In this document: piece by piece, positions 27,204-35,446 of the stretch
Layout of the letters: each line of letters begins with the position of its first letter
How positions within the stretch are numbered: the first letter of the stretch is position 1
Source: an uncultured archaeon
Lineage (GTDB): Archaea > Asgardarchaeota > Lokiarchaeia > Sigyniarchaeales > SOKP01
Assembly (NCBI GenBank): GCA_964486045.1
Contig: CAZALK010000003.1
Location: 224,001-288,000, forward strand
Reading direction: 5' to 3'
Length of the DNA: 64,000 bases
Made by a program: the position numbers and the translations under genes
The notes under the pieces: model-generated
What the model was told of the DNA's origin: nothing
Seen by the model: the letters and a program-made list of their open reading frames with translations, nothing else
The model's database searches: none

Positions 27204-27896
27204 CTATATATCTTGCATCCATACTCTAAAGTTTGAAAACTTAATACTAAATTCTTTAAACTTATTTACAACCAGTAATAATCCTTTTTCAGGTATAATA
27301 AATGAACCCCGTCCTAATTTCATTCCCTGCAATTTTTTTACTATCCCTTCTTTTTTATATTTGTATAATTTCTCTGAATATTTCTTAGTAGTTTTATATC
27401 CATATAGTATTCTTTTTAGTTTCATTTTATCCGAACTATTAAGTGCTCTTAGATTTAAAGTTATGATTTGATATGGCTTAAATTCAAGAGTTTTTATTAA
27501 AATTTCATAATAATTAGAATTCCCATAAAGCAATTGTCCTTCTGCCAAGATATTTTCAATAAAAATTCTATCCCAGTTATTTATATCCTCCGGTAAAAAG
27601 AACACACATTGGATGGAGAGGTTTAAATCTTTTCCTAGGCTTAAAAAATAGTTAAAAATAGTATTTTGCAACATTTTAGGAGTATTTTGCTTAAATAAAA
27701 TACAGATGTCAATATCACTCTCCTTATTAAATTTTCCTGAAGCCAAAGAGCCAAATAATACAATACTTTCAATCTCTTTAAATTCGGAGAGTTTGCTGCC
27801 TATAAAATTTTTGATTTTATTTATAAGCTTCTCCAATTTTGGATTTTTTCCATAATCTTCAATCTGGTTTTTTTCAAATTTTATATTAAGAGCCAA
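27204..27896 (-). CDS. Minimal nucleotidyltransferase (MNT) antitoxin-like protein with C-terminal extension
   Basis: IVLFGSLASG...ESDIDI, ILAEGQLLY. Confidence 0.85.
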   Translation of the reverse strand: MALNIKFEKNQIEDYGKNPKLEKLINKIKNFIGSKLSEFKEIESIVLFGSLASGKFNKESDIDICILFKQNTPKMLQNTIFNYFLSLGKDLNLSIQCVFFLPEDINNWDRIFIENILAEGQLLYGNSNYYEILIKTLEFKPYQIITLNLRALNSSDKMKLKRILYGYKTTKKYSEKLYKYKKEGIVKKLQGMKLGRGSFIIPEKGLLLVVNKFKEFSIKFSNFRVWMQDI

Positions 27897-27897
27897 C

Positions 27898-28257
27898 TTA
27901 TAACACCTTTTTACATATCTCTTCTAATTTGTAATATTTCTCCTTTAATTCATTAAAATCATCATCTGTCCAACTAAATCCATAAGTAAATTTTGGACGA
28001 ATTTTATTTTCAATATCTTGAAATAATCGCCATACATTTTCTGTTTCCTTTTCAAAGATATTAGGATTATTTTCTAAAACGATCCTTACTTTTTGATGTT
28101 TGTTAACATGTATTCGATATTTCGCAGCGCAGCATTCAATTAAATGAAATATCGAAAGAAAATATAATTCTGCTCTAGAAGGCTTTGAATTAACCTCATT
28201 TTCAGCATCTTTTTTAAAATTCAAATATGATTTTTTATGATTTTCAAATTTACTCAT
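27898..28257 (-). CDS. HEPN-like protein, partner of MNT (start likely 28257 or 28266, not 28356)
   Basis: All-helical, ELYFLSIFHLIE...H...IRPKFTYG; 1 nt from the MNT gene. Confidence 0.65.
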   Translation of the reverse strand: MSKFENHKKSYLNFKKDAENEVNSKPSRAELYFLSIFHLIECCAAKYRIHVNKHQKVRIVLENNPNIFEKETENVWRLFQDIENKIRPKFTYGFSWTDDDFNELKEKYYKLEEICKKVL

Positions 28258-28452
28258 ATTTAACATCAATTCATTTTTCGTAATATAATAATGCGAAAGA
28301 ATATATAAATATTTACCCTTATTTTTTATGCAATTTAAAGCCATAGGGAAGTGCATAACATAATTTAATATATTCTCGTAATGAAAATTTGTTTGAAGGA
28401 GAACATTCTTTATATCCTTGATTTCATTTTTTTTTATTTAGATTTATAACTC

Positions 28453-29598: not shown

Positions 29599-31080
29599 AT
29601 GACCGAAGATAAAACTGACGAAGAAAAGACCAAATATGAATATTCATTTGATTATATTCAGAGAAAACTCGAAGGAAAAAAAGACAGCTACGGACTATTA
29701 GTCAAGGATATCATTAGAACAGGAATTTGTACAGAATGTGGGACTTGCGCAGCAGTATGTCCAGTTTTAGAATGGGATCAAATTGCAGGGCAACCAAAGC
29801 TTATAGGAAAATGTAATGGATGTGGAATTTGTTATAACCAATGTCCTCGAACAATAACGGATCCTGTCCAGCTAATGGGAGAATTTAAAACTGGTTATGT
29901 TTCAAATACTAACATTCCTGAGATAATTGGAGCACAAGACGGTGGGACAGTAACATCTCTTTTATCTTATTTATTTGATGAACATCTTATTGATGCTGCA
30001 ATTGTAACAATGAAAGATCCCAATCATCCATGGAACCCAGCAGCACAAATCATAACTAATAAAACTGACTCGATAAGAGCTGCTGGTTCAATCTATACTC
30101 ATTCTCAAACAGTAGAAGCTTTAATGGAAGCTATTCGACAAGAATATCGATCAATAGCCTTTGTTGGCACTCCTTGTAATATTGATGCTGTTGATAAAAT
30201 GATAAATTCACCAGCGGGAATGTTGCGTTATTTTATGCGGGCAAATGTCTTTAAAATTGGCTTATTTTGTATGGATGCCTTTTCACCAGAAACACTTTAT
30301 GCAAAATTTGAGAAAGATGGAATCGATTTAACTAAAGTTGTGAAGATGGACATAAATAAGGGAAAATTTCATATATATTATGTAAATCAAGAAGAACCTG
30401 TAAAATCATACCCTATCGCTTCATTGCATAAGTTTAAATCACCAAGTTGTACTTTCTGTACAGATCTAACTGCGGAAAATGCTGATCTCTCAGTTGGATC
30501 AGTTGGAAGTGGGGCAAAGAAAAATACAGTTTTTGCAAGAACTGGGATTGGAGCTGAAATTTTAGAAGATGCCGCAAAAAAAGGTTATATTACAATTGAA
30601 CCATATAATGCAATTAATTTAAATGCAGTGTTAAATTTATGTAAACGAAAAAAGTCTGCTCAGTACAATATTCAGAAAAGAAAGGTATTTGTTGTAAGAG
30701 ACACTCTGGATGATGAGGACGAAGAAGAAGTATCTAACATCGAAACAATGCCCGAAGTTGAGAAACCAAAACCCCTAAAAGGTACCAGGAGAGCGATAAG
30801 CGTGACAAAAAAATTAAACGAAAAAAAGAAAACTTTAGATCTCACTATTACAAATACTGTAGGATTTGCATTAGATGATATAAAAATTAGGGTGGCTGCT
30901 GTCGACGAAATTTTTGAAACAAAACCATGGATAACTACGATAAAAGAAATGTTTCCATTTGAAACGATTGAAATTCCTTACCCACTAGAATCATTGGAAG
31001 GAAGTGTGTTAGTTGAGGCGACGTCTAAAACGTATGGAAAAATTTTCTCGCGGACATTGAAATATTCACCAGCAAAATAA
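29599..31080 (+). CDS. FrhB/FdhB-family protein with acidic linker and extra C-terminal beta-sandwich-like domain
   Basis: CTECGTCAAVCP, CNGCGICYNQCP, QDGGTVT, VGTPC, GLFCMD, CTFCTDLTAENADLSVGSVGS, then DDEDEEE and a ~95-aa tail. Confidence 0.9.
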   Translation: MTEDKTDEEKTKYEYSFDYIQRKLEGKKDSYGLLVKDIIRTGICTECGTCAAVCPVLEWDQIAGQPKLIGKCNGCGICYNQCPRTITDPVQLMGEFKTGYVSNTNIPEIIGAQDGGTVTSLLSYLFDEHLIDAAIVTMKDPNHPWNPAAQIITNKTDSIRAAGSIYTHSQTVEALMEAIRQEYRSIAFVGTPCNIDAVDKMINSPAGMLRYFMRANVFKIGLFCMDAFSPETLYAKFEKDGIDLTKVVKMDINKGKFHIYYVNQEEPVKSYPIASLHKFKSPSCTFCTDLTAENADLSVGSVGSGAKKNTVFARTGIGAEILEDAAKKGYITIEPYNAINLNAVLNLCKRKKSAQYNIQKRKVFVVRDTLDDEDEEEVSNIETMPEVEKPKPLKGTRRAISVTKKLNEKKKTLDLTITNTVGFALDDIKIRVAAVDEIFETKPWITTIKEMFPFETIEIPYPLESLEGSVLVEATSKTYGKIFSRTLKYSPAK

Positions 31081-31157
31081 ATTTGTCAAAATCCTTTTAT
31101 TAACAAGCACTATAATAAAGTATTAAATAATAAAAATTTTGAAGATGAAATTCAACA

Positions 31158-32066
31158 ATGAAAATTGCATTAATAGGATTGGCTGGTTGTGGTAAAACGA
31201 GCCTCTATTTGATAGGATTTACAGAAGCAACCCCAGAACAAACAAAATCATTATCTCCTACAATATTGTATGAGACTCGGCGCCATCCATTCTTAGGCTT
31301 AAATGTGGGCATCTGGGATATGGGTGGTCAAGAACAATACAGAAAGGATTATATGGAACACTCAGAACCCTTAAAAGGGACTGACATCCTTATTCCTGTA
31401 GTAGATTTACACGATCCTGATAATTTTGAAACGGCAAAAGAGTACTTTCTTGGGTTATTGGATATTTATCGAAAGAATAATGAGAAACCTAAGATCTTCC
31501 TCTTTTTACATAAATATGATACACAAGATTTTCAGAAAGAGCTTTTAGATACAAACGTAAAGAAAGCAAAAGAGATTTTTTTAGACCTTTTCAAAACATA
31601 CGATTTTGATTTTACTTTTACAAGTATATATGAACAAGATAAATTAGCTAAAGTATTCCGAAACCTTTTAATGACTTCATATACTGAATTGAAAAATAAT
31701 GTTGAAAGAGCTGATAAACAACTTGAAGAAATTAAAGCAAAGATCATTATTTCTGATATCTCTGGGAATGTACTTTCTCACAATATTGCTGGTGTAACTA
31801 GTGGTTTAACATTAAGAAGTGATCTTAGAGATTTTATTAATGCAAGTAATGTCATACGAGAAAATATTTTTATGAATGATTCAGCAAATTTTAAAGGTGA
31901 AGATGAAGATGGAAAGCAAATTGAATTGTATATTTTTAAATATATAATATCAGTATTAATAATGAAATCAGGAGAATTGGATGTGGAATCACAAGAAAAA
32001 TTAAATTCTTTACTAAAAGATATGAAGTTGTTTGCGGATTTGATTATTTCAGCTCACACAGATTAG
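31158..32066 (+). CDS. Rag/Gtr-like small GTPase with C-terminal roadblock-like domain
   Basis: GLAGCGKTS, LSPTI, FLGLNVGIWDMGGQ, FLHKYD, TSIY (compare RagA FLGNL..WDCGGQ, VHKMD, TSIW). Confidence 0.85.
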   Translation: MKIALIGLAGCGKTSLYLIGFTEATPEQTKSLSPTILYETRRHPFLGLNVGIWDMGGQEQYRKDYMEHSEPLKGTDILIPVVDLHDPDNFETAKEYFLGLLDIYRKNNEKPKIFLFLHKYDTQDFQKELLDTNVKKAKEIFLDLFKTYDFDFTFTSIYEQDKLAKVFRNLLMTSYTELKNNVERADKQLEEIKAKIIISDISGNVLSHNIAGVTSGLTLRSDLRDFINASNVIRENIFMNDSANFKGEDEDGKQIELYIFKYIISVLIMKSGELDVESQEKLNSLLKDMKLFADLIISAHTD

Positions 32067-32133
32067 GGTAAAAAAAATTTATTAAAATACCATTATAATA
32101 TAAAAATAATTTTTTAGCTTTAAAGGAATAAGT

Positions 32134-33348
32134 TTGACGTTGATAAAATTACAACTATCCACTTTAGAGAATAGTTCTACGGTTATAGGAGATAAATTAA
32201 ATATTAGAGCAAAATATATTTTTGAAGAAGATACATCTGTTTTATGGAGCGGTGTTCAATTAATAACAAATCCACCATGTGCCAAAGAACTTCAAATAGC
32301 AAAAGAAGAAATATTTTCAGAAGGAACTTTTGAAGCTGGAGAATATATCCGGGAAAAAAATCTATTAGTAAGTAGTAATGTTGTTCCAACTATAAAAAAT
32401 AGGAATATCAGTTATTTTGTAAACTTAATTTTAAGGCATCCAAATCATAATAAAACCGGTAAAGATTTAATCATTAATCAAACTCAAGCTATTGAGTTAA
32501 AAAAAAAAAAAAATCTTTCAACAAAATTACCCAATCCAATTTCTTTTTCATTATCAGGATTGAATATTTTACTTACTAAAGATATATTCAAACCTGGAGA
32601 GACGATTAAGATAAGTTTTTCTTCTGAAGTGCTTAAACAATTAGAGATACGATTATTACAAAACGCAAATCTTGTTTGTTTTTGTAACGCTTACGGTAAA
32701 GATTGTAGTTTAGTTGAGGAATTACCCCCTGCAATTGCTGGAGATGCAAAAACAACAGATATGGAAAGGGGATTTTTATTGTTAAATGTGCCGGAAATAG
32801 CTGAACCAAGTCATAATTATCTTTGGGAACCTATTGAAAAAGAACAATTTGGAGTAAGGTATGGAGATTATACTAAATGGTCTCTCCTAATTATGGGAAA
32901 AGAAAAGCCCGAATATGGTAAAGAGCCAATAAATTTTGAAATTCCAATTACAATTGTACCAAAACGTTTTATAGAAAAGAAGGGTGAAATTAACCTATTC
33001 TCAAAAGCAAATTCGAGTTCACATTCTTTATTTGATGGCTTATCCTCCAAATTTCAAAAAATATATAAAGTACTTTCATTAAATTCAGATTTAAATAATT
33101 ATAAGTTGAAAGTAAAAAATATTTCACACGCCGATCTCAATGGTGTAACGGTAAAAGTAGCGGGATTACATGAAGGTTTTTTTGAAACTGCCCCAAACCT
33201 AACTGGATTCAATTCATGGAAAATTAACGAGGAAAAAGAGATTATATATAAGACAAAACAAAAAATTTCAGCTGTAATTTCTGAAATCTCAGATAACACT
33301 CAAAAAAAAATTAAGATTCAAACCCCAATTTCCTCAAATTTTTTTTAA
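32134..33348 (+). CDS. Arrestin-fold protein (N and C domains) with additional C-terminal domain
   Basis: FEAGEY...VVPT...ISYFVNLILRHP (arrestin-N pattern); KDIFKPGETI...LEIRLLQ...LNVP...PS...WSL...FEIPITI (arrestin-C pattern). Confidence 0.7.
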   Translation: MTLIKLQLSTLENSSTVIGDKLNIRAKYIFEEDTSVLWSGVQLITNPPCAKELQIAKEEIFSEGTFEAGEYIREKNLLVSSNVVPTIKNRNISYFVNLILRHPNHNKTGKDLIINQTQAIELKKKKNLSTKLPNPISFSLSGLNILLTKDIFKPGETIKISFSSEVLKQLEIRLLQNANLVCFCNAYGKDCSLVEELPPAIAGDAKTTDMERGFLLLNVPEIAEPSHNYLWEPIEKEQFGVRYGDYTKWSLLIMGKEKPEYGKEPINFEIPITIVPKRFIEKKGEINLFSKANSSSHSLFDGLSSKFQKIYKVLSLNSDLNNYKLKVKNISHADLNGVTVKVAGLHEGFFETAPNLTGFNSWKINEEKEIIYKTKQKISAVISEISDNTQKKIKIQTPISSNFF

Positions 33349-33469: not shown

Positions 33470-34039
33470 ATGGTAAATAGATGTAGTTGGGCAAATTACA
33501 GTGATTTAATGAAAAAATATCATGATAAGGAGTGGTGCGCACCAGTTCATGATGATCAACTACTTTTTGAATTTCTGGTGTTAGAAGGGGCTCAAGCCGG
33601 TCTGAGTTGGAATACAATTTTGAAAAAACGCGAAAATTTTAGAAAAGCTTTTGATAATTTTGACTACAAGAAGATCTCGAGATACACAAATCAAAAAATT
33701 GATGAATTGCTTAATGATAAAGGTATTATAAGAAATAGACTAAAAATAGAATCTGTGATTACAAATGCTAAGGCGTTGCTAAAAATTCAAAAGGAATTTG
33801 GCTCTTTCAACACATATTTATGGAATTTTGTAAATAATAATACAGTAATGAACAATTTTAAAAAAATGGAAGATTTACCATCAAAAACGGACCAGTCAGA
33901 AGTAATTAGCAAAGATTTGAAGAAACGTGGTTTTAAATTTGTTGGACCAACAATTATTTATAGTTTTATGCAAGCTATTGGAATGGTAAATGACCATTTA
34001 GTCGATTGTTTTCGATATAATGAGATAAAAAAGATATAA
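33470..34039 (+). CDS. tag: DNA-3-methyladenine glycosylase I
   Basis: RCSW, YHDKEW, LEGAQAGLSW, IIRNRLKI, GFKFVGPT, NDHLVDC. Confidence 0.96.
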   Translation: MVNRCSWANYSDLMKKYHDKEWCAPVHDDQLLFEFLVLEGAQAGLSWNTILKKRENFRKAFDNFDYKKISRYTNQKIDELLNDKGIIRNRLKIESVITNAKALLKIQKEFGSFNTYLWNFVNNNTVMNNFKKMEDLPSKTDQSEVISKDLKKRGFKFVGPTIIYSFMQAIGMVNDHLVDCFRYNEIKKI

Positions 34040-34346: not shown

Positions 34347-34940
34347 TTAGTTGATAGTAGAAATCAATTTATGATCATAATATTTTTGCAAAACTAATTG
34401 TAACATATTTTCAAAACATTCTAAAATACCCTCACCGTTGATAGCAATGGTAGATCTTGTATTTATATTTTTATATTTATGAAAATCTATCGCTTTTAAG
34501 AATTTTGTTGAAATAAATTTCTCTGGGAGGTCTTGTTTATTAAAGGCAGCAGTAATTGGAAGGTCTTCAAGAGAATCACCAAAATATGAGATCAATTCAT
34601 TCCAGGAAATCAGATTTCGCTCATAAACCTTTTTTTGTGAATCTATTACGAAAATTATACCATCAACTGCTTTTAGAGTAATTGGTCGCGTAATTAAATA
34701 GAAACTCTGGCCTGTAGTAGTATATATACTTATTTTAAGAACCCAATCTTGATTTTGAAATGAAATAATACCATAATCAAAAAATAATGTTCGATTTACC
34801 GTGCTTTCAATACTCAGGATTTTCTCCTCTTTCCCAAAATGAGAAAACAATGTTTTAATGGAGGTAGTTTTACCTGATAGAGCAGGTCCAAAATAAACAA
34901 TTTTAATACTTATAGTTTTGTCAACATGATCTATTATCAA
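34347..34940 (-). CDS. MglA-like small GTPase
   Basis: KIVYFGPALSGKTT, RTLFFD, YTTTGQ, VDGIIFVIDS, NKQD. Confidence 0.88.
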   Translation of the reverse strand: MIIDHVDKTISIKIVYFGPALSGKTTSIKTLFSHFGKEEKILSIESTVNRTLFFDYGIISFQNQDWVLKISIYTTTGQSFYLITRPITLKAVDGIIFVIDSQKKVYERNLISWNELISYFGDSLEDLPITAAFNKQDLPEKFISTKFLKAIDFHKYKNINTRSTIAINGEGILECFENMLQLVLQKYYDHKLISTIN

Positions 34941-35053
34941 CTTAGGTACAACTCATTTCATTTTTACTGGTAAGTTAAAAAATAGCTTTTTAAAAACCAA
35001 GTTTTTTTAGGTATAATAAAAGAGAGAGAATATTCTTTCTATTGTAAAGATCT

Positions 35054-35446
35054 TTAATGATGACTAAAAATAAGTTTATTTTTTTCTATTTTACAAGATA
35101 AAAGATTCCTTAAAATTAGAATCTCAACCTCTCTCCTCAAAATCTCTTCACTAATGAGTAAATTTTCTTTTAATTTTAATTTATTACTTAGTTCTTCAAA
35201 AGAAATTGAATTATTTCCTGTTGGAATGTCCTTAATTATCTCAAGAATAACTTGTTGATGATGTGCAGATTTGCAATTGGAATCTAATTGATAGAGCTGA
35301 TGTACTAAATTGTAGTTAAAATCAGATTCACCATTTTTCTCTATTTCTTTTAAATTCTCTAAAATTGCATTAGCTTCTACATATTTTTCTAATCCTATTA
35401 GCTCCCTTGATTTATTCAACAATTTGATAAATTCTTTAAGATTCAT
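35054..35446 (-). CDS. Hypothetical protein, helical hairpin + winged helix (PCI-like)
   Basis: ISFEELSNKL...LRREVEILILRNLLSCKIE. Confidence 0.6.
   Translation of the reverse strand: MNLKEFIKLLNKSRELIGLEKYVEANAILENLKEIEKNGESDFNYNLVHQLYQLDSNCKSAHHQQVILEIIKDIPTGNNSISFEELSNKLKLKENLLISEEILRREVEILILRNLLSCKIEKNKLIFSHH

What the first reader, a model, noticed from the sequence alone, without database searches (positions are those of the whole stretch)
29599..33348. FrhB-Rag GTPase-arrestin cluster in which the redox enzyme and the arrestin share a C-terminal domain
Seen: three adjacent co-oriented genes. The FrhB tail (LDLTITNTVGFALDDIKIRVAAVDE-IFETKPWITTIKEMFPFETIEIPY, ~30790-31080) aligns by eye with the arrestin tail (YKLKVKNISHADLNGVTVKVAGLHEGFFETAPNLTGFNSWKINEEKEIIY, ~33050-33348). 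The shared pattern is L.(I/V).N.....L..(I/V).(I/V).VA...E..FET.P..T.......E..EI.Y. Each tail follows a low-complexity linker, and the other two FrhB paralogs in the window lack it. Known: Rag GTPases and alpha-arrestins are eukaryotic nutrient-signalling/trafficking components with Asgard homologs; FrhB binds FAD/F420. Inference: the shared domain is a dimerisation or GTPase-docking module that couples F420 redox state to a Rag-arrestin switch. I know of no description of such a system. Caveat: the 67-77 bp gaps contain TATA-like sequence, so co-transcription is not certain.
Basis: partly seen in the sequence, partly recalled or inferred. Interest (0 to 1): 0.88.

Follow-up and report, generated by a model that had tools for sequence, protein, structure and literature searches.

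The report
Shared domain ties Asgard Rag module
In this Lokiarchaeial genome a redox enzyme, a Rag-type GTPase and an arrestin-fold protein form a gene unit kept across several Asgard classes, and the two outer proteins really do end in the same rare small domain, which points to a testable partner set for an archaeal relative of the eukaryotic nutrient switch.

Summary
The window holds three co-oriented genes:
- an FrhB-family Fe-S flavoprotein (29599-31080);
- a Rag/Gtr1-type GTPase (31158-32066);
- an arrestin-fold protein (32134-33348).

The C-terminal ~95 residues of the first and third are homologous. The window pair alone is weak (BLASTP E 3e-5). Profiles that include distant orthologues give hhalign probability 97.7%, E 2e-12, while reversed and shuffled controls score 18 or less.

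The domain is a 7-strand Ig-like sandwich, remotely CARDB/DUF11-like, and it is not promiscuous. Among 1.84 billion representative proteins it sits on only three Asgard architectures: FrhB, the arrestin-like protein, and an unannotated third family that is sometimes fused to 4 CBS domains. A genome search added a fourth carrier, an NfnB/GltD-like oxidoreductase that replaces FrhB in one lineage.

FrhB-Rag adjacency is almost invariant (44 of 50 loci). The arrestin gene is adjacent in the ancestral layout and often displaced. This Rag subfamily and the domain co-occur in the same five Asgard families.

That the domain docks on Rag has only weak support (complex score 0.57, best control 0.00). 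F420 sensing is untested. The scan reported this module before on other genomes.

The parts
29599..31080 (+). FrhB-family Fe-S flavoprotein gene (P0001, 493 aa): ferredoxin-like 2x[4Fe-4S] N-terminus, FrhB_N, FrhB_C, acidic linker, shared tail
   Evidence: Orthologue alignment A1 has 82% mean column identity. The 8 ferredoxin Cys and C193, C224, C284, C287 are invariant.
29710..30609 (+). Catalytic core of the FrhB-like protein (Fer4 residues 38-85, FrhB_N 110-175, FrhB_C 184-337)
   Evidence: Pfam hits above the curated cut-offs.
30691..30780 (+). Acidic/lysine-rich low-complexity linker before the tail (residues ~365-394)
   Evidence: Read directly from the translation. It is the poorly conserved stretch of alignment A1.
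30781..31077 (+). Shared C-terminal domain, FrhB copy (residues 395-493): 7-strand Ig-like beta sandwich
   Evidence: AF2 model pLDDT 91.8. hhalign to the arrestin tail gives 97.7%, E 2e-12. Atlas TM 0.84 to 344-346 aa Promethearchaeota proteins, which are the third family.
31081..31157 (.). 77-bp AT-rich spacer with TATA-like strings
   Evidence: The FrhB-to-Rag gap is 14-135 bp in 44 of 50 related loci.
31158..32066 (+). Rag/Gtr1-type GTPase gene (P0002, 302 aa): G domain 1-175 with GxxGCGKT, DxGGQ and Rag-type HKYD, plus a conserved C-terminal domain 176-302
   Evidence: Pfam Gtr1_RagA 74.8 bits. Profile vs PDB: RagA 77.9 bits and Gtr1 76.6 bits, against Arl3 36.9 bits. Motifs are invariant in A8. 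The C-terminal part has no Pfam hit.
32067..32133 (.). 67-bp AT-rich spacer with TATA-like strings
32134..33348 (+). Arrestin-fold protein gene (P0003, 404 aa; likely true start is the TTG at 32140)
   Evidence: N-lobe 1-126: VIA Z 13.9 Spo0M, 12.6 ARRDC3, 11.8 arrestin, 11.5 VPS26C. Arrestin_C hits in 14 of 22 relatives. PLM features 0.87 to arrestin/Vps26 clusters.
32677..32706 (+). CxCx6C segment (C182, C184, C191). Together with C49 (32278-32280) this gives four Cys invariant across the family; possible metal site
   Evidence: Invariant columns of A6, 22 sequences down to 24% identity. Metal binding is an inference.
33046..33345 (+). Shared C-terminal domain, arrestin copy (residues 305-404)
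   Evidence: It is the confident part of the P0003 model, with the same strand order as the FrhB tail.

Best explanation
The three genes are the core of a conserved Asgard module built around one Rag/Gtr-type GTPase.

The other components are:
- a flavin/Fe-S oxidoreductase, FrhB-type here and NfnB/GltD-type in one lineage;
- an arrestin-fold protein;
- a third, longin-like protein with or without CBS domains. In this genome it is encoded 62 kb away.

Each of these three ends in the same private Ig-like domain. Most likely this domain is a common docking handle. It would bring each carrier to one shared site, with the Rag GTPase dimer as the best candidate. The GTPase switch would then be physically tied to a redox enzyme, a candidate regulator/energy sensor and an adaptor.

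Shown: domain homology, its restriction to these carriers, synteny and phyletic co-occurrence.

Inferred: binding to Rag, a GAP role for the third protein, and the direction of information flow (redox enzyme as input or as regulated target).
For: 1. Homology of the tails across three families: hhalign E 2e-12, 1e-25 and 2e-13, with controls scoring 18 or less. The combined alignment A5 has an invariant Asn and an FE motif.

2. Restriction. The A5 profile found 140 proteins at E<=1e-3 in 1.84 billion representatives.
- Those with a recognisable N-terminal part are 7 FrhB-type, 18 arrestin-type and 41 third-family.
- Thirty giant CARDB/DUF11 repeat proteins match only short stretches.
- About 40 short entries (53-267 aa) were not resolved.

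3. Synteny. Rag lies within 200 bp downstream of the FrhB tail in 44 of 50 class loci. The arrestin gene lies directly after Rag in 10 of 46 loci, and within 9 kb on the same strand in 33 of 46. Loci from three other Asgard families keep third ... FrhB-Rag-arrestin.

4. Phyletic pattern in one sample of 151 Asgard genomes.
- The domain occurs in families f1, f12, f17, f21, f22 and f25 only.
- This Rag subfamily (E<=1e-60) occurs in f1, f12, f21, f22 and f25 only.

5. Replacement of the redox carrier. In f25 the domain ends an NfnB/GltD-like protein, which closes an operon that starts with the Rag gene. CBS and two third-family genes lie opposite.

6. Gene fusion. The third family is fused to 4 CBS domains in 632-645 aa forms and sits next to a separate 4xCBS gene in L006.

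7. Complex prediction with two Rag copies plus the tail gave weak support: score 0.57, best of 3 controls 0.00.
- The mark was reached by 58 of 80 solved complexes and 2 of 110 mismatched pairs.
- At 0.60 or under it was reached by only 7 of those 80 solved complexes and by both mismatches that passed.
- The runs agree in at least 66% of contacts, and partner pLDDT is at least 77.
Against: - The complex score lies in the band where passes are more often wrong than right unless the prior is good. No interface was reported.
- Three genomes of family f17 keep FrhB plus tail but have no Rag orthologue (two checked at E<=1e-20, all three at E<=1e-60). Their only hit with the domain profile is the FrhB tail. 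Their neighbourhood is unrelated. The tail can therefore persist without the module.
- In many genomes of the own family, the arrestin and third genes are kilobases away or elsewhere.
- The fold is a very common Ig-like sandwich with no function-specific match. The best VIA Z is ~10, to transglutaminase and GH2 Ig domains.
- No expression or protein data exist.
Confidence: 0.5

Rival explanations
1. The shared domain is a hetero- or homo-oligomerisation module. The tails bind each other and assemble the oxidoreductase, the arrestin-fold protein and the longin-like protein into one complex. Rag engages that complex through other surfaces, for example the longin domain.
For: The same homology, synteny and co-occurrence data apply. 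Ig-like sandwiches often pair edge to edge (general knowledge). The Rag-tail prediction is only weak.
Against: f17 genomes carry a single tail-bearing protein, which fits only homo-oligomerisation.
Confidence: 0.2
2. The domain is a localisation or ligand-binding module for membrane lipid, envelope, cytoskeleton or a small molecule. It sends each carrier independently to the same place, and the gene linkage reflects co-regulation rather than direct contacts.
For: Foldseek lists the lipid-binding sandwiches RhoGDI, UNC119 and NPC2 among the best PDB matches, at E ~1e-3 and TM 0.5-0.6. FrhB plus tail persists alone in f17.
Against: Those matches are no better than many unrelated Ig domains. The domain occurs on no other protein families in 1.84 billion representatives, which is unusual for a general targeting domain. 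The controls scored 0.00.
Confidence: 0.15
3. There is no functional coupling. The tail is a neutral stabilising Ig domain that spread by local domain duplication among neighbouring genes, and the gene order is simply inherited.
For: All carriers are neighbours in the ancestral layout, which favours local duplication. Kin genomes are not independent samples.
Against: The tail is strongly conserved. Mean column identity is 75-80% within each carrier family, and an Asn and the FE motif are invariant across families. The domain was moved onto a different oxidoreductase in f25 while staying next to Rag, CBS and third-family genes. The layout is retained across several classes.
Confidence: 0.07

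Closest known systems
Eukaryotic Rag/Gtr GTPases with their longin-domain GAP complexes (GATOR1 NPRL2-NPRL3, FLCN-FNIP) and Ragulator/EGO
   Same: The GTPase is of the Rag/Gtr1 type: Pfam PF04670, an HKxD G4 motif, and best PDB sequence matches to RagA and Gtr1. It is genetically tied to a protein whose N-domain resembles NPR2/C9orf72/folliculin longins by language-model features (0.92 to an archaeal cluster in which 19% of members carry NPR2; 0.77 and 0.75 to eukaryotic clusters). CBS domains add a plausible adenylate-sensing input.
   Different: There is a single Rag gene per module rather than an A/C heterodimer pair. No Ragulator-like or TOR components were seen. The partners are a redox enzyme and an arrestin-fold protein. 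All partners share a private Ig-like domain that eukaryotic partners lack. The longin assignment is not supported by the Pfam NPR2 or Folliculin HMMs.
Asgard FLCN/SMCR8-type 'GP-motif' longins (PMC12290439) and NPRL2-like longins (bioRxiv 10.1101/2020.10.19.343400)
   Same: These papers report Asgard longins resembling GAP longins and explicitly leave their GTPase partner open. The third family has an invariant Gly in the loop before the second strand and a conserved SxRxKxRxG loop.
   Different: Membership of the third family in that class was not established here. Neither paper, as read here, describes the FrhB-Rag-arrestin cluster or the shared domain. PMC10933270 states that MK-D1 GTPase genes generally are not in operons with regulators.
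Arrestin clan (alpha-arrestins ARRDC3/TXNIP, Vps26, bacterial Spo0M)
   Same: The N-lobe fold matches at Z 11-14, ahead of generic Ig domains. The second lobe matches Pfam Arrestin_C in most relatives.
   Different: There is an extra third beta-sandwich (the shared tail) and four invariant Cys. The window protein itself has no Pfam hit. The second-lobe model is poor.
CARDB / DUF11 / DUF7507 Ig-like repeats (E-set)
   Same: It is a seven-strand sandwich. The tail profile picks up short stretches (profile positions ~15-37, around the conserved Asn) of giant CARDB/DUF11 repeat proteins.
   Different: The tails themselves hit no Pfam family at E<=1. The domain is cytoplasmic and single-copy, and it is confined to three or four Asgard architectures rather than being promiscuous.
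FrhB/FdhB family (F420-reducing hydrogenase beta subunit and relatives)
   Same: FrhB_N and FrhB_C score well above their cut-offs, with conserved cluster cysteines and an N-terminal 2x[4Fe-4S] ferredoxin domain.
   Different: It is not next to hydrogenase or formate dehydrogenase partner genes. It carries the extra tail. Its cofactor and substrate are unknown.

Membership tests
Rag/Gtr GTPase family (PF04670) | The G domain matches Rag/Gtr better than other small GTPase families | tested here: met
   Gtr1_RagA scores 74.8 bits (cut-off 22) against Arf at 44.3. Profile vs PDB: RagA 77.9, Gtr1 76.6 and RagC 49 bits, against Arl3 36.9.
Rag/Gtr GTPase family (PF04670) | G motifs with a Rag-type HKxD in G4 | tested here: met
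   GxxGxGKT, DxGGQ and HKYD/HKFD/HKWD are conserved in 20 orthologues. That HKxD is Rag-typical rests on my own knowledge.
Rag/Gtr GTPase family (PF04670) | C-terminal roadblock domain that mediates dimerisation | tested here: inconclusive
   Residues 165-302 are highly conserved but hit no Pfam family at E<=10. The Gtr2 alignment extends to position 229. The domain was not folded on its own.
Rag/Gtr GTPase family (PF04670) | Obligate heterodimer of two paralogues (A/B-type with C/D-type) | tested here: inconclusive
   Most genomes have one orthologue at E<=1e-60 and one Rag gene per locus. More distant Rag-like paralogues were not surveyed.
FrhB/FdhB family | FrhB_N and FrhB_C domains above the Pfam gathering score | tested here: met
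   68.1 and 142.1 bits, against cut-offs of 22 and 23.3.
FrhB/FdhB family | Use of F420 (or another flavin) as substrate or cofactor | not testable with these tools
   Sequence alone does not separate F420-dependent members from other members of this family.
Arrestin clan | N-lobe with an arrestin-type beta sandwich | tested here: met
   VIA: Spo0M Z 13.9 (rmsd 1.9, 117 aligned), ARRDC3 N-lobe 12.6, arrestins 11.6-11.8, VPS26C 11.5, TXNIP N-domain 11.1. These rank above generic Ig domains. Model pLDDT there is only 60-80.
Arrestin clan | Second arrestin lobe (Arrestin_C) | tested here: inconclusive
   Fourteen of 22 family members hit Pfam Arrestin_C (best E 3.4e-5), but P0003 itself does not. 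The profile vs PDB gives ARRD-6 at E 0.046. The AF2 model of residues 127-303 is mostly below pLDDT 50.
CARDB/DUF11-like Ig domains | Sequence match of the tail to the family models | tested here: not met
   There is no Pfam family at E<=1 for either tail. The only link is indirect: short partial matches of the A5 profile to CARDB/DUF11/DUF7507 repeat proteins. I therefore describe the fold as CARDB-like and do not file the domain as a member.
FLCN/NPRL2/SMCR8-type GAP longins (for the third carrier, outside the window) | Match to the NPR2 or Folliculin models, or to a solved GAP longin | tested here: not met
   No Pfam hit was shared by the 25 members at E<=5. No PDB sequence hit appeared at E<=10. 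The PF06218 and PF11704 genome searches do not hit this gene. Only language-model features point there.
FLCN/NPRL2/SMCR8-type GAP longins (for the third carrier, outside the window) | GP motif before strand 2 and an arginine finger (PMC12290439) | tested here: inconclusive
   A7 has an invariant Gly (G31), usually as G-H-x-P rather than GP, and a conserved SxRxKxRxG loop in about 20 of 25 members. Positions cannot be mapped without a structure.

The most novel reading that the evidence does not exclude
The module is an archaeal counterpart of the eukaryotic Rag nutrient-sensing hub. The cell's redox and energy state sets the state of a Rag GTPase through a longin-type GAP. That state is read by a flavin/Fe-S oxidoreductase and by CBS domains. 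An arrestin-fold protein acts as the output adaptor. The private Ig-like domain is the docking code that defines who belongs to the hub.
Probability: 0.25. Interest if true: 0.9.

Novelty: new variant of a known kind. Interest (0 to 1): 0.78.

Why it matters
Asgard archaea encode dozens of Rag-, Arf- and Rab-like GTPases and many longin and roadblock proteins. Published work states that cognate partners cannot be read from gene order (PMC10933270). It also leaves open which GTPase the GAP-like Asgard longins act on (PMC12290439).

This module offers one defined set of candidate partners for one GTPase: a regulator-like protein, an adaptor-like protein and a metabolic enzyme. The set is marked by a shared domain and conserved across several classes. 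All members are soluble proteins of modest size that can be expressed and tested.

If the link to redox and energy metabolism holds, it would suggest what Rag-type switches sensed before TOR and lysosomes existed.

Tried and rejected
- Close-orthologue tail profiles (A2, A3) did not find each other in the own genome at E<=10 and gave only 45% by hhalign. Homology became clear only with distant orthologues.
- Foldseek of the full P0003 model was uninformative, giving tandem Ig proteins at TM 0.13-0.25. Atlas TM values of 0.3-0.43 to arrestin/Vps26 clusters are only suggestive.
- The third-family N-domain was not identified:
  - no consistent Pfam family;
  - no PDB sequence match;
  - the NPR2 and Folliculin HMMs miss it;
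  - an NPR2 search of 151 Asgard genomes found nothing, and nothing rang in the controls either, so that search is uninformative;
  - all 120 listed homologues are named 'hypothetical protein' or unnamed.
The third family and the Rag C-terminal domain were therefore not folded.
- Sequencing runs: no RNA holder is listed. Read laying was therefore not used, and co-transcription stays open.
- No promoter or terminator scan was run, because the tool's sigma-70 consensus does not apply to archaea. TATA-like strings in a 30% GC genome are not informative.
- Literature searches found no description of an FrhB-Rag-arrestin cluster or of the shared domain. The library lacks most subscription-journal papers.


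Full report
**What is in the window.** The window is G000:C3:224001-288000 of a 5.18-Mb, ~30% GC Asgard genome. Its relatives are labelled Promethearchaeota/Lokiarchaeota. Three co-oriented ORFs lie at 29599-31080, 31158-32066 and 32134-33348.
- P0001 carries a 2x[4Fe-4S] ferredoxin module, FrhB_FdhB_N and FrhB_FdhB_C within residues 38-337. An acidic linker and about 100 further residues follow, and these match nothing in Pfam.
- P0002 is a Rag/Gtr1-type GTPase.
  - Pfam Gtr1_RagA scores 74.8 bits against a cut-off of 22.
  - A profile of 20 orthologues hits RagA at 77.9 bits and Gtr1 at 76.6 bits, but Arl3 at only 36.9 bits.
  - GxxGxGKT, DxGGQ and HKYD are conserved.
  - Residues 165-302 are conserved but hit no Pfam family.
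- P0003 has no Pfam hit of its own, but it is an arrestin-clan protein.
  - Its N-lobe model matches Spo0M (Z 13.9, rmsd 1.9 over 117 residues), the ARRDC3 N-lobe (12.6), arrestins (11.6-11.8), VPS26C (11.5) and TXNIP (11.1). All rank ahead of generic Ig domains.
  - Fourteen of 22 diverse family members hit Pfam Arrestin_C.
  - Language-model features point the same way.
  - The model of the second lobe is poor.

**Are the tails alike beyond chance?** For the window pair alone the evidence is thin.
- BLASTP gives E 3e-5 for that single comparison. This would not survive an all-against-all search of the window.
- Profiles of close orthologues give hhalign probability 45%.
- Neither profile finds the other tail in the genome.

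The picture changed with distant relatives.
- A class-wide genome search with the FrhB-tail profile hit a second, neighbouring gene in several other families.
- A combined HMM then found the domain on three genes per locus.
- Family-specific profiles that include these distant members give three clear matches: FrhB tail vs arrestin tail at 97.7%, E 2e-12 over 90 columns; FrhB vs third family at 99.7%, E 1e-25; and arrestin vs third family at 98%, E 2e-13.
- Reversed and column-shuffled controls scored 18 or less, against 68-135 for the real pairs.
- HMMs of the full-length arrestin and third families also hit the FrhB tail among the window's ORFs.
- The joint alignment has an invariant Asn, an (F)FE motif and a W-x-P-x-EE stretch.
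- The FrhB tail folds confidently (pLDDT 91.8) into seven strands. The P0003 tail is the confident part of its model and has the same strand order.
- The two other FrhB paralogues in the window lack the tail.

**What the domain is.** The fold is a common Ig-like sandwich.
- The best VIA matches are Z ~10 to transglutaminase and GH2 Ig domains.
- Foldseek E values are ~1e-3 to GH3, RhoGDI, UNC119 and NPC2.
- None of these matches is specific.

Against 1.84 billion representative proteins, the A5 profile found only 140 hits at E<=1e-3.
- By their N-terminal parts, 7 are FrhB-type, 18 arrestin-type and 41 third-family.
- About 30 are giant CARDB/DUF11/DUF7507 repeat proteins that match only a short stretch around the conserved Asn.
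- About 40 are short entries that I could not resolve. They may be fragments or stand-alone domains.

The domain is therefore CARDB-like in fold but private to this module.

**The third carrier.** This is a family of 340-370 aa, with a copy in this genome at C3:190509-191588, 62 kb upstream of the FrhB gene.
- It has an N-domain of about 170 aa, a helical linker and the shared tail.
- In some lineages it is fused to four CBS domains (632-645 aa). In L006 it sits beside a separate 4xCBS gene.
- It has no Pfam family, no PDB sequence match and no annotation.
- Language-model features place its N-domain next to an archaeal cluster in which 19% of members carry NPR2 (0.92). The next nearest are C9orf72/NPR2 (0.77) and LST7/folliculin (0.75) clusters.
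- It has an invariant Gly before the second strand and a conserved SxRxKxRxG loop. [quoted passage not shown]
- This is a lead only. The Pfam NPR2 and Folliculin models do not hit it, and I could not fold it.

**Gene order and distribution.**
- In 50 loci of the class that carry an FrhB tail, the Rag gene starts within 200 bp downstream on the same strand in 44.
- The arrestin gene follows Rag directly in 10 of 46 loci with enough flank. It lies within 9 kb on the same strand in 33 of 46.
- In one complete genome the arrestin gene is elsewhere.
- Loci from three further Asgard families outside the class keep third ... FrhB-Rag-arrestin contiguous. A fourth has the pieces on both strands. The contiguous trio is therefore the likely ancestral layout.
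- In one sample of 151 Asgard genomes, the domain was found in families f1, f12, f17, f21, f22 and f25 only. This Rag subfamily (E<=1e-60) was found in f1, f12, f21, f22 and f25 only.
- These are kin, so the independent units are families, not genomes.

**Two informative exceptions.**
- In f25 the domain ends an NfnB/GltD-like protein (Fer4_20 plus Pyr_redox_2).
  - That protein closes an operon with the order Rag, NuoE-like, NuoF-like, NuoG/Fdh-like, NfnA-like, NfnB-like plus tail.
  - A CBS pair and two third-family genes lie on the other strand.
  - A different oxidoreductase carrying the same handle next to the same partners argues that what matters is bringing a redox enzyme into the module.
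- In f17, FrhB plus tail occurs without this Rag orthologue, and the domain profile hits nothing else there. The neighbourhood is unrelated. The tail can therefore persist on its own.

**Mechanism.** The best-supported reading is a common docking handle that assembles the carriers on a shared site, most plausibly the Rag dimer.
- The one complex job used two Rag copies plus the tail, both supplied as alignments. It returned weak support: score 0.57 (runs 0.55, 0.57, 0.60), best of 3 controls 0.00.
- Calibration for that mark is as follows.
  - The mark was reached by 58 of 80 solved complexes and 2 of 110 mismatched pairs.
  - At 0.60 or under it was reached by only 7 of those 80 solved complexes and by both mismatches that passed.
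  - The runs agree in at least 66% of contacts, and partner pLDDT is at least 77.
- This raises my odds modestly.
- Tail-tail assembly and a shared localisation or ligand-binding role remain open.
- Whether the oxidoreductase reports redox state to the switch or is controlled by it cannot be told from sequence. Nothing here bears on F420 itself.
- The arrestin-like family has four invariant Cys (C49, C182, C184, C191). I read this as a possible metal site, by inference only.

**Comparison with the literature.**
- Rag-like GTPases, NPRL2-like and FLCN-type longins and arrestin-like proteins are all known in Asgard archaea (bioRxiv 10.1101/2020.10.19.343400; PMC12290439; PMC10933270).
- PMC10933270 notes that GTPase genes generally are not in operons with their regulators.
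- PMC12290439 leaves the GTPase partner of GAP-like longins open.
- I found no paper describing this cluster or the shared domain.
- The scan itself has reported the same module on several other Asgard genomes. I read those notes after reaching my own conclusions. They agree with them and are not independent evidence.

**Verdict.** I class it as a new variant of a known kind, a Rag-type GTPase module with an unusual, domain-tagged partner set.

Noticed in passing
L004:1501-1680 (G000:C14:147212-147388, outside the window): A 59-codon remnant of the 3' end of an FrhB-tail gene, with its stop codon. It is closest to the LCGC14-type orthologues. It stands alone in an AT-rich intergenic stretch and looks like a gene fragment from a related lineage.
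   Followed up: partly
window 34347-35446 (-): An Arf-like GTPase (197 aa) and a 130-aa protein lie convergent with the arrestin gene. This pair sits next to the arrestin-like gene in many genomes of the same family, even where FrhB-Rag is kilobases away. It was not seen in the distant loci.
   Followed up: partly
window 32278-32280 and 32677-32706: Four Cys (C49, C182, C184, C191) are invariant in the arrestin-like family down to 24% identity. This is unusual for arrestins and suggests a Zn or Fe-S site.
   Followed up: partly
L064:4935-6668 and G201:C12:9003-9893: In one Asgard family the shared domain ends an NfnB/GltD-like oxidoreductase, at the end of a Rag-NuoE-NuoF-NuoG/Fdh-NfnA-like operon. 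A CBS pair and two third-family genes lie opposite.
   Followed up: yes
L066:6444-8030, L068:6235-7689: Genomes of another Asgard family keep FrhB plus tail without this Rag orthologue, and the domain profile found no other carrier in them. The neighbours are a peptidase S9, a GFO/IDH oxidoreductase and a TrmB regulator.
   Followed up: partly
window 32134-32142: The arrestin-like gene probably starts at the second TTG (32140). This gives the MIKLQL start that matches the homologues' MVKLEL, and it matches the 402-aa database copy P0030.
   Followed up: partly
window 33470-34039: A 3-methyladenine DNA glycosylase (Adenine_glyco-like, judged by its position in L001/L002) sits after the arrestin gene here. 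In relatives it lies between Rag and the arrestin gene, together with a HAD hydrolase. This is local rearrangement inside the module.
   Followed up: no
window 27204-28356 (-): Two abutting minus-strand ORFs lie upstream of the FrhB gene. One has a nucleotidyltransferase-like GS...DxD motif. They could be an MNT/HEPN-type pair. This was not checked with any tool.
   Followed up: no
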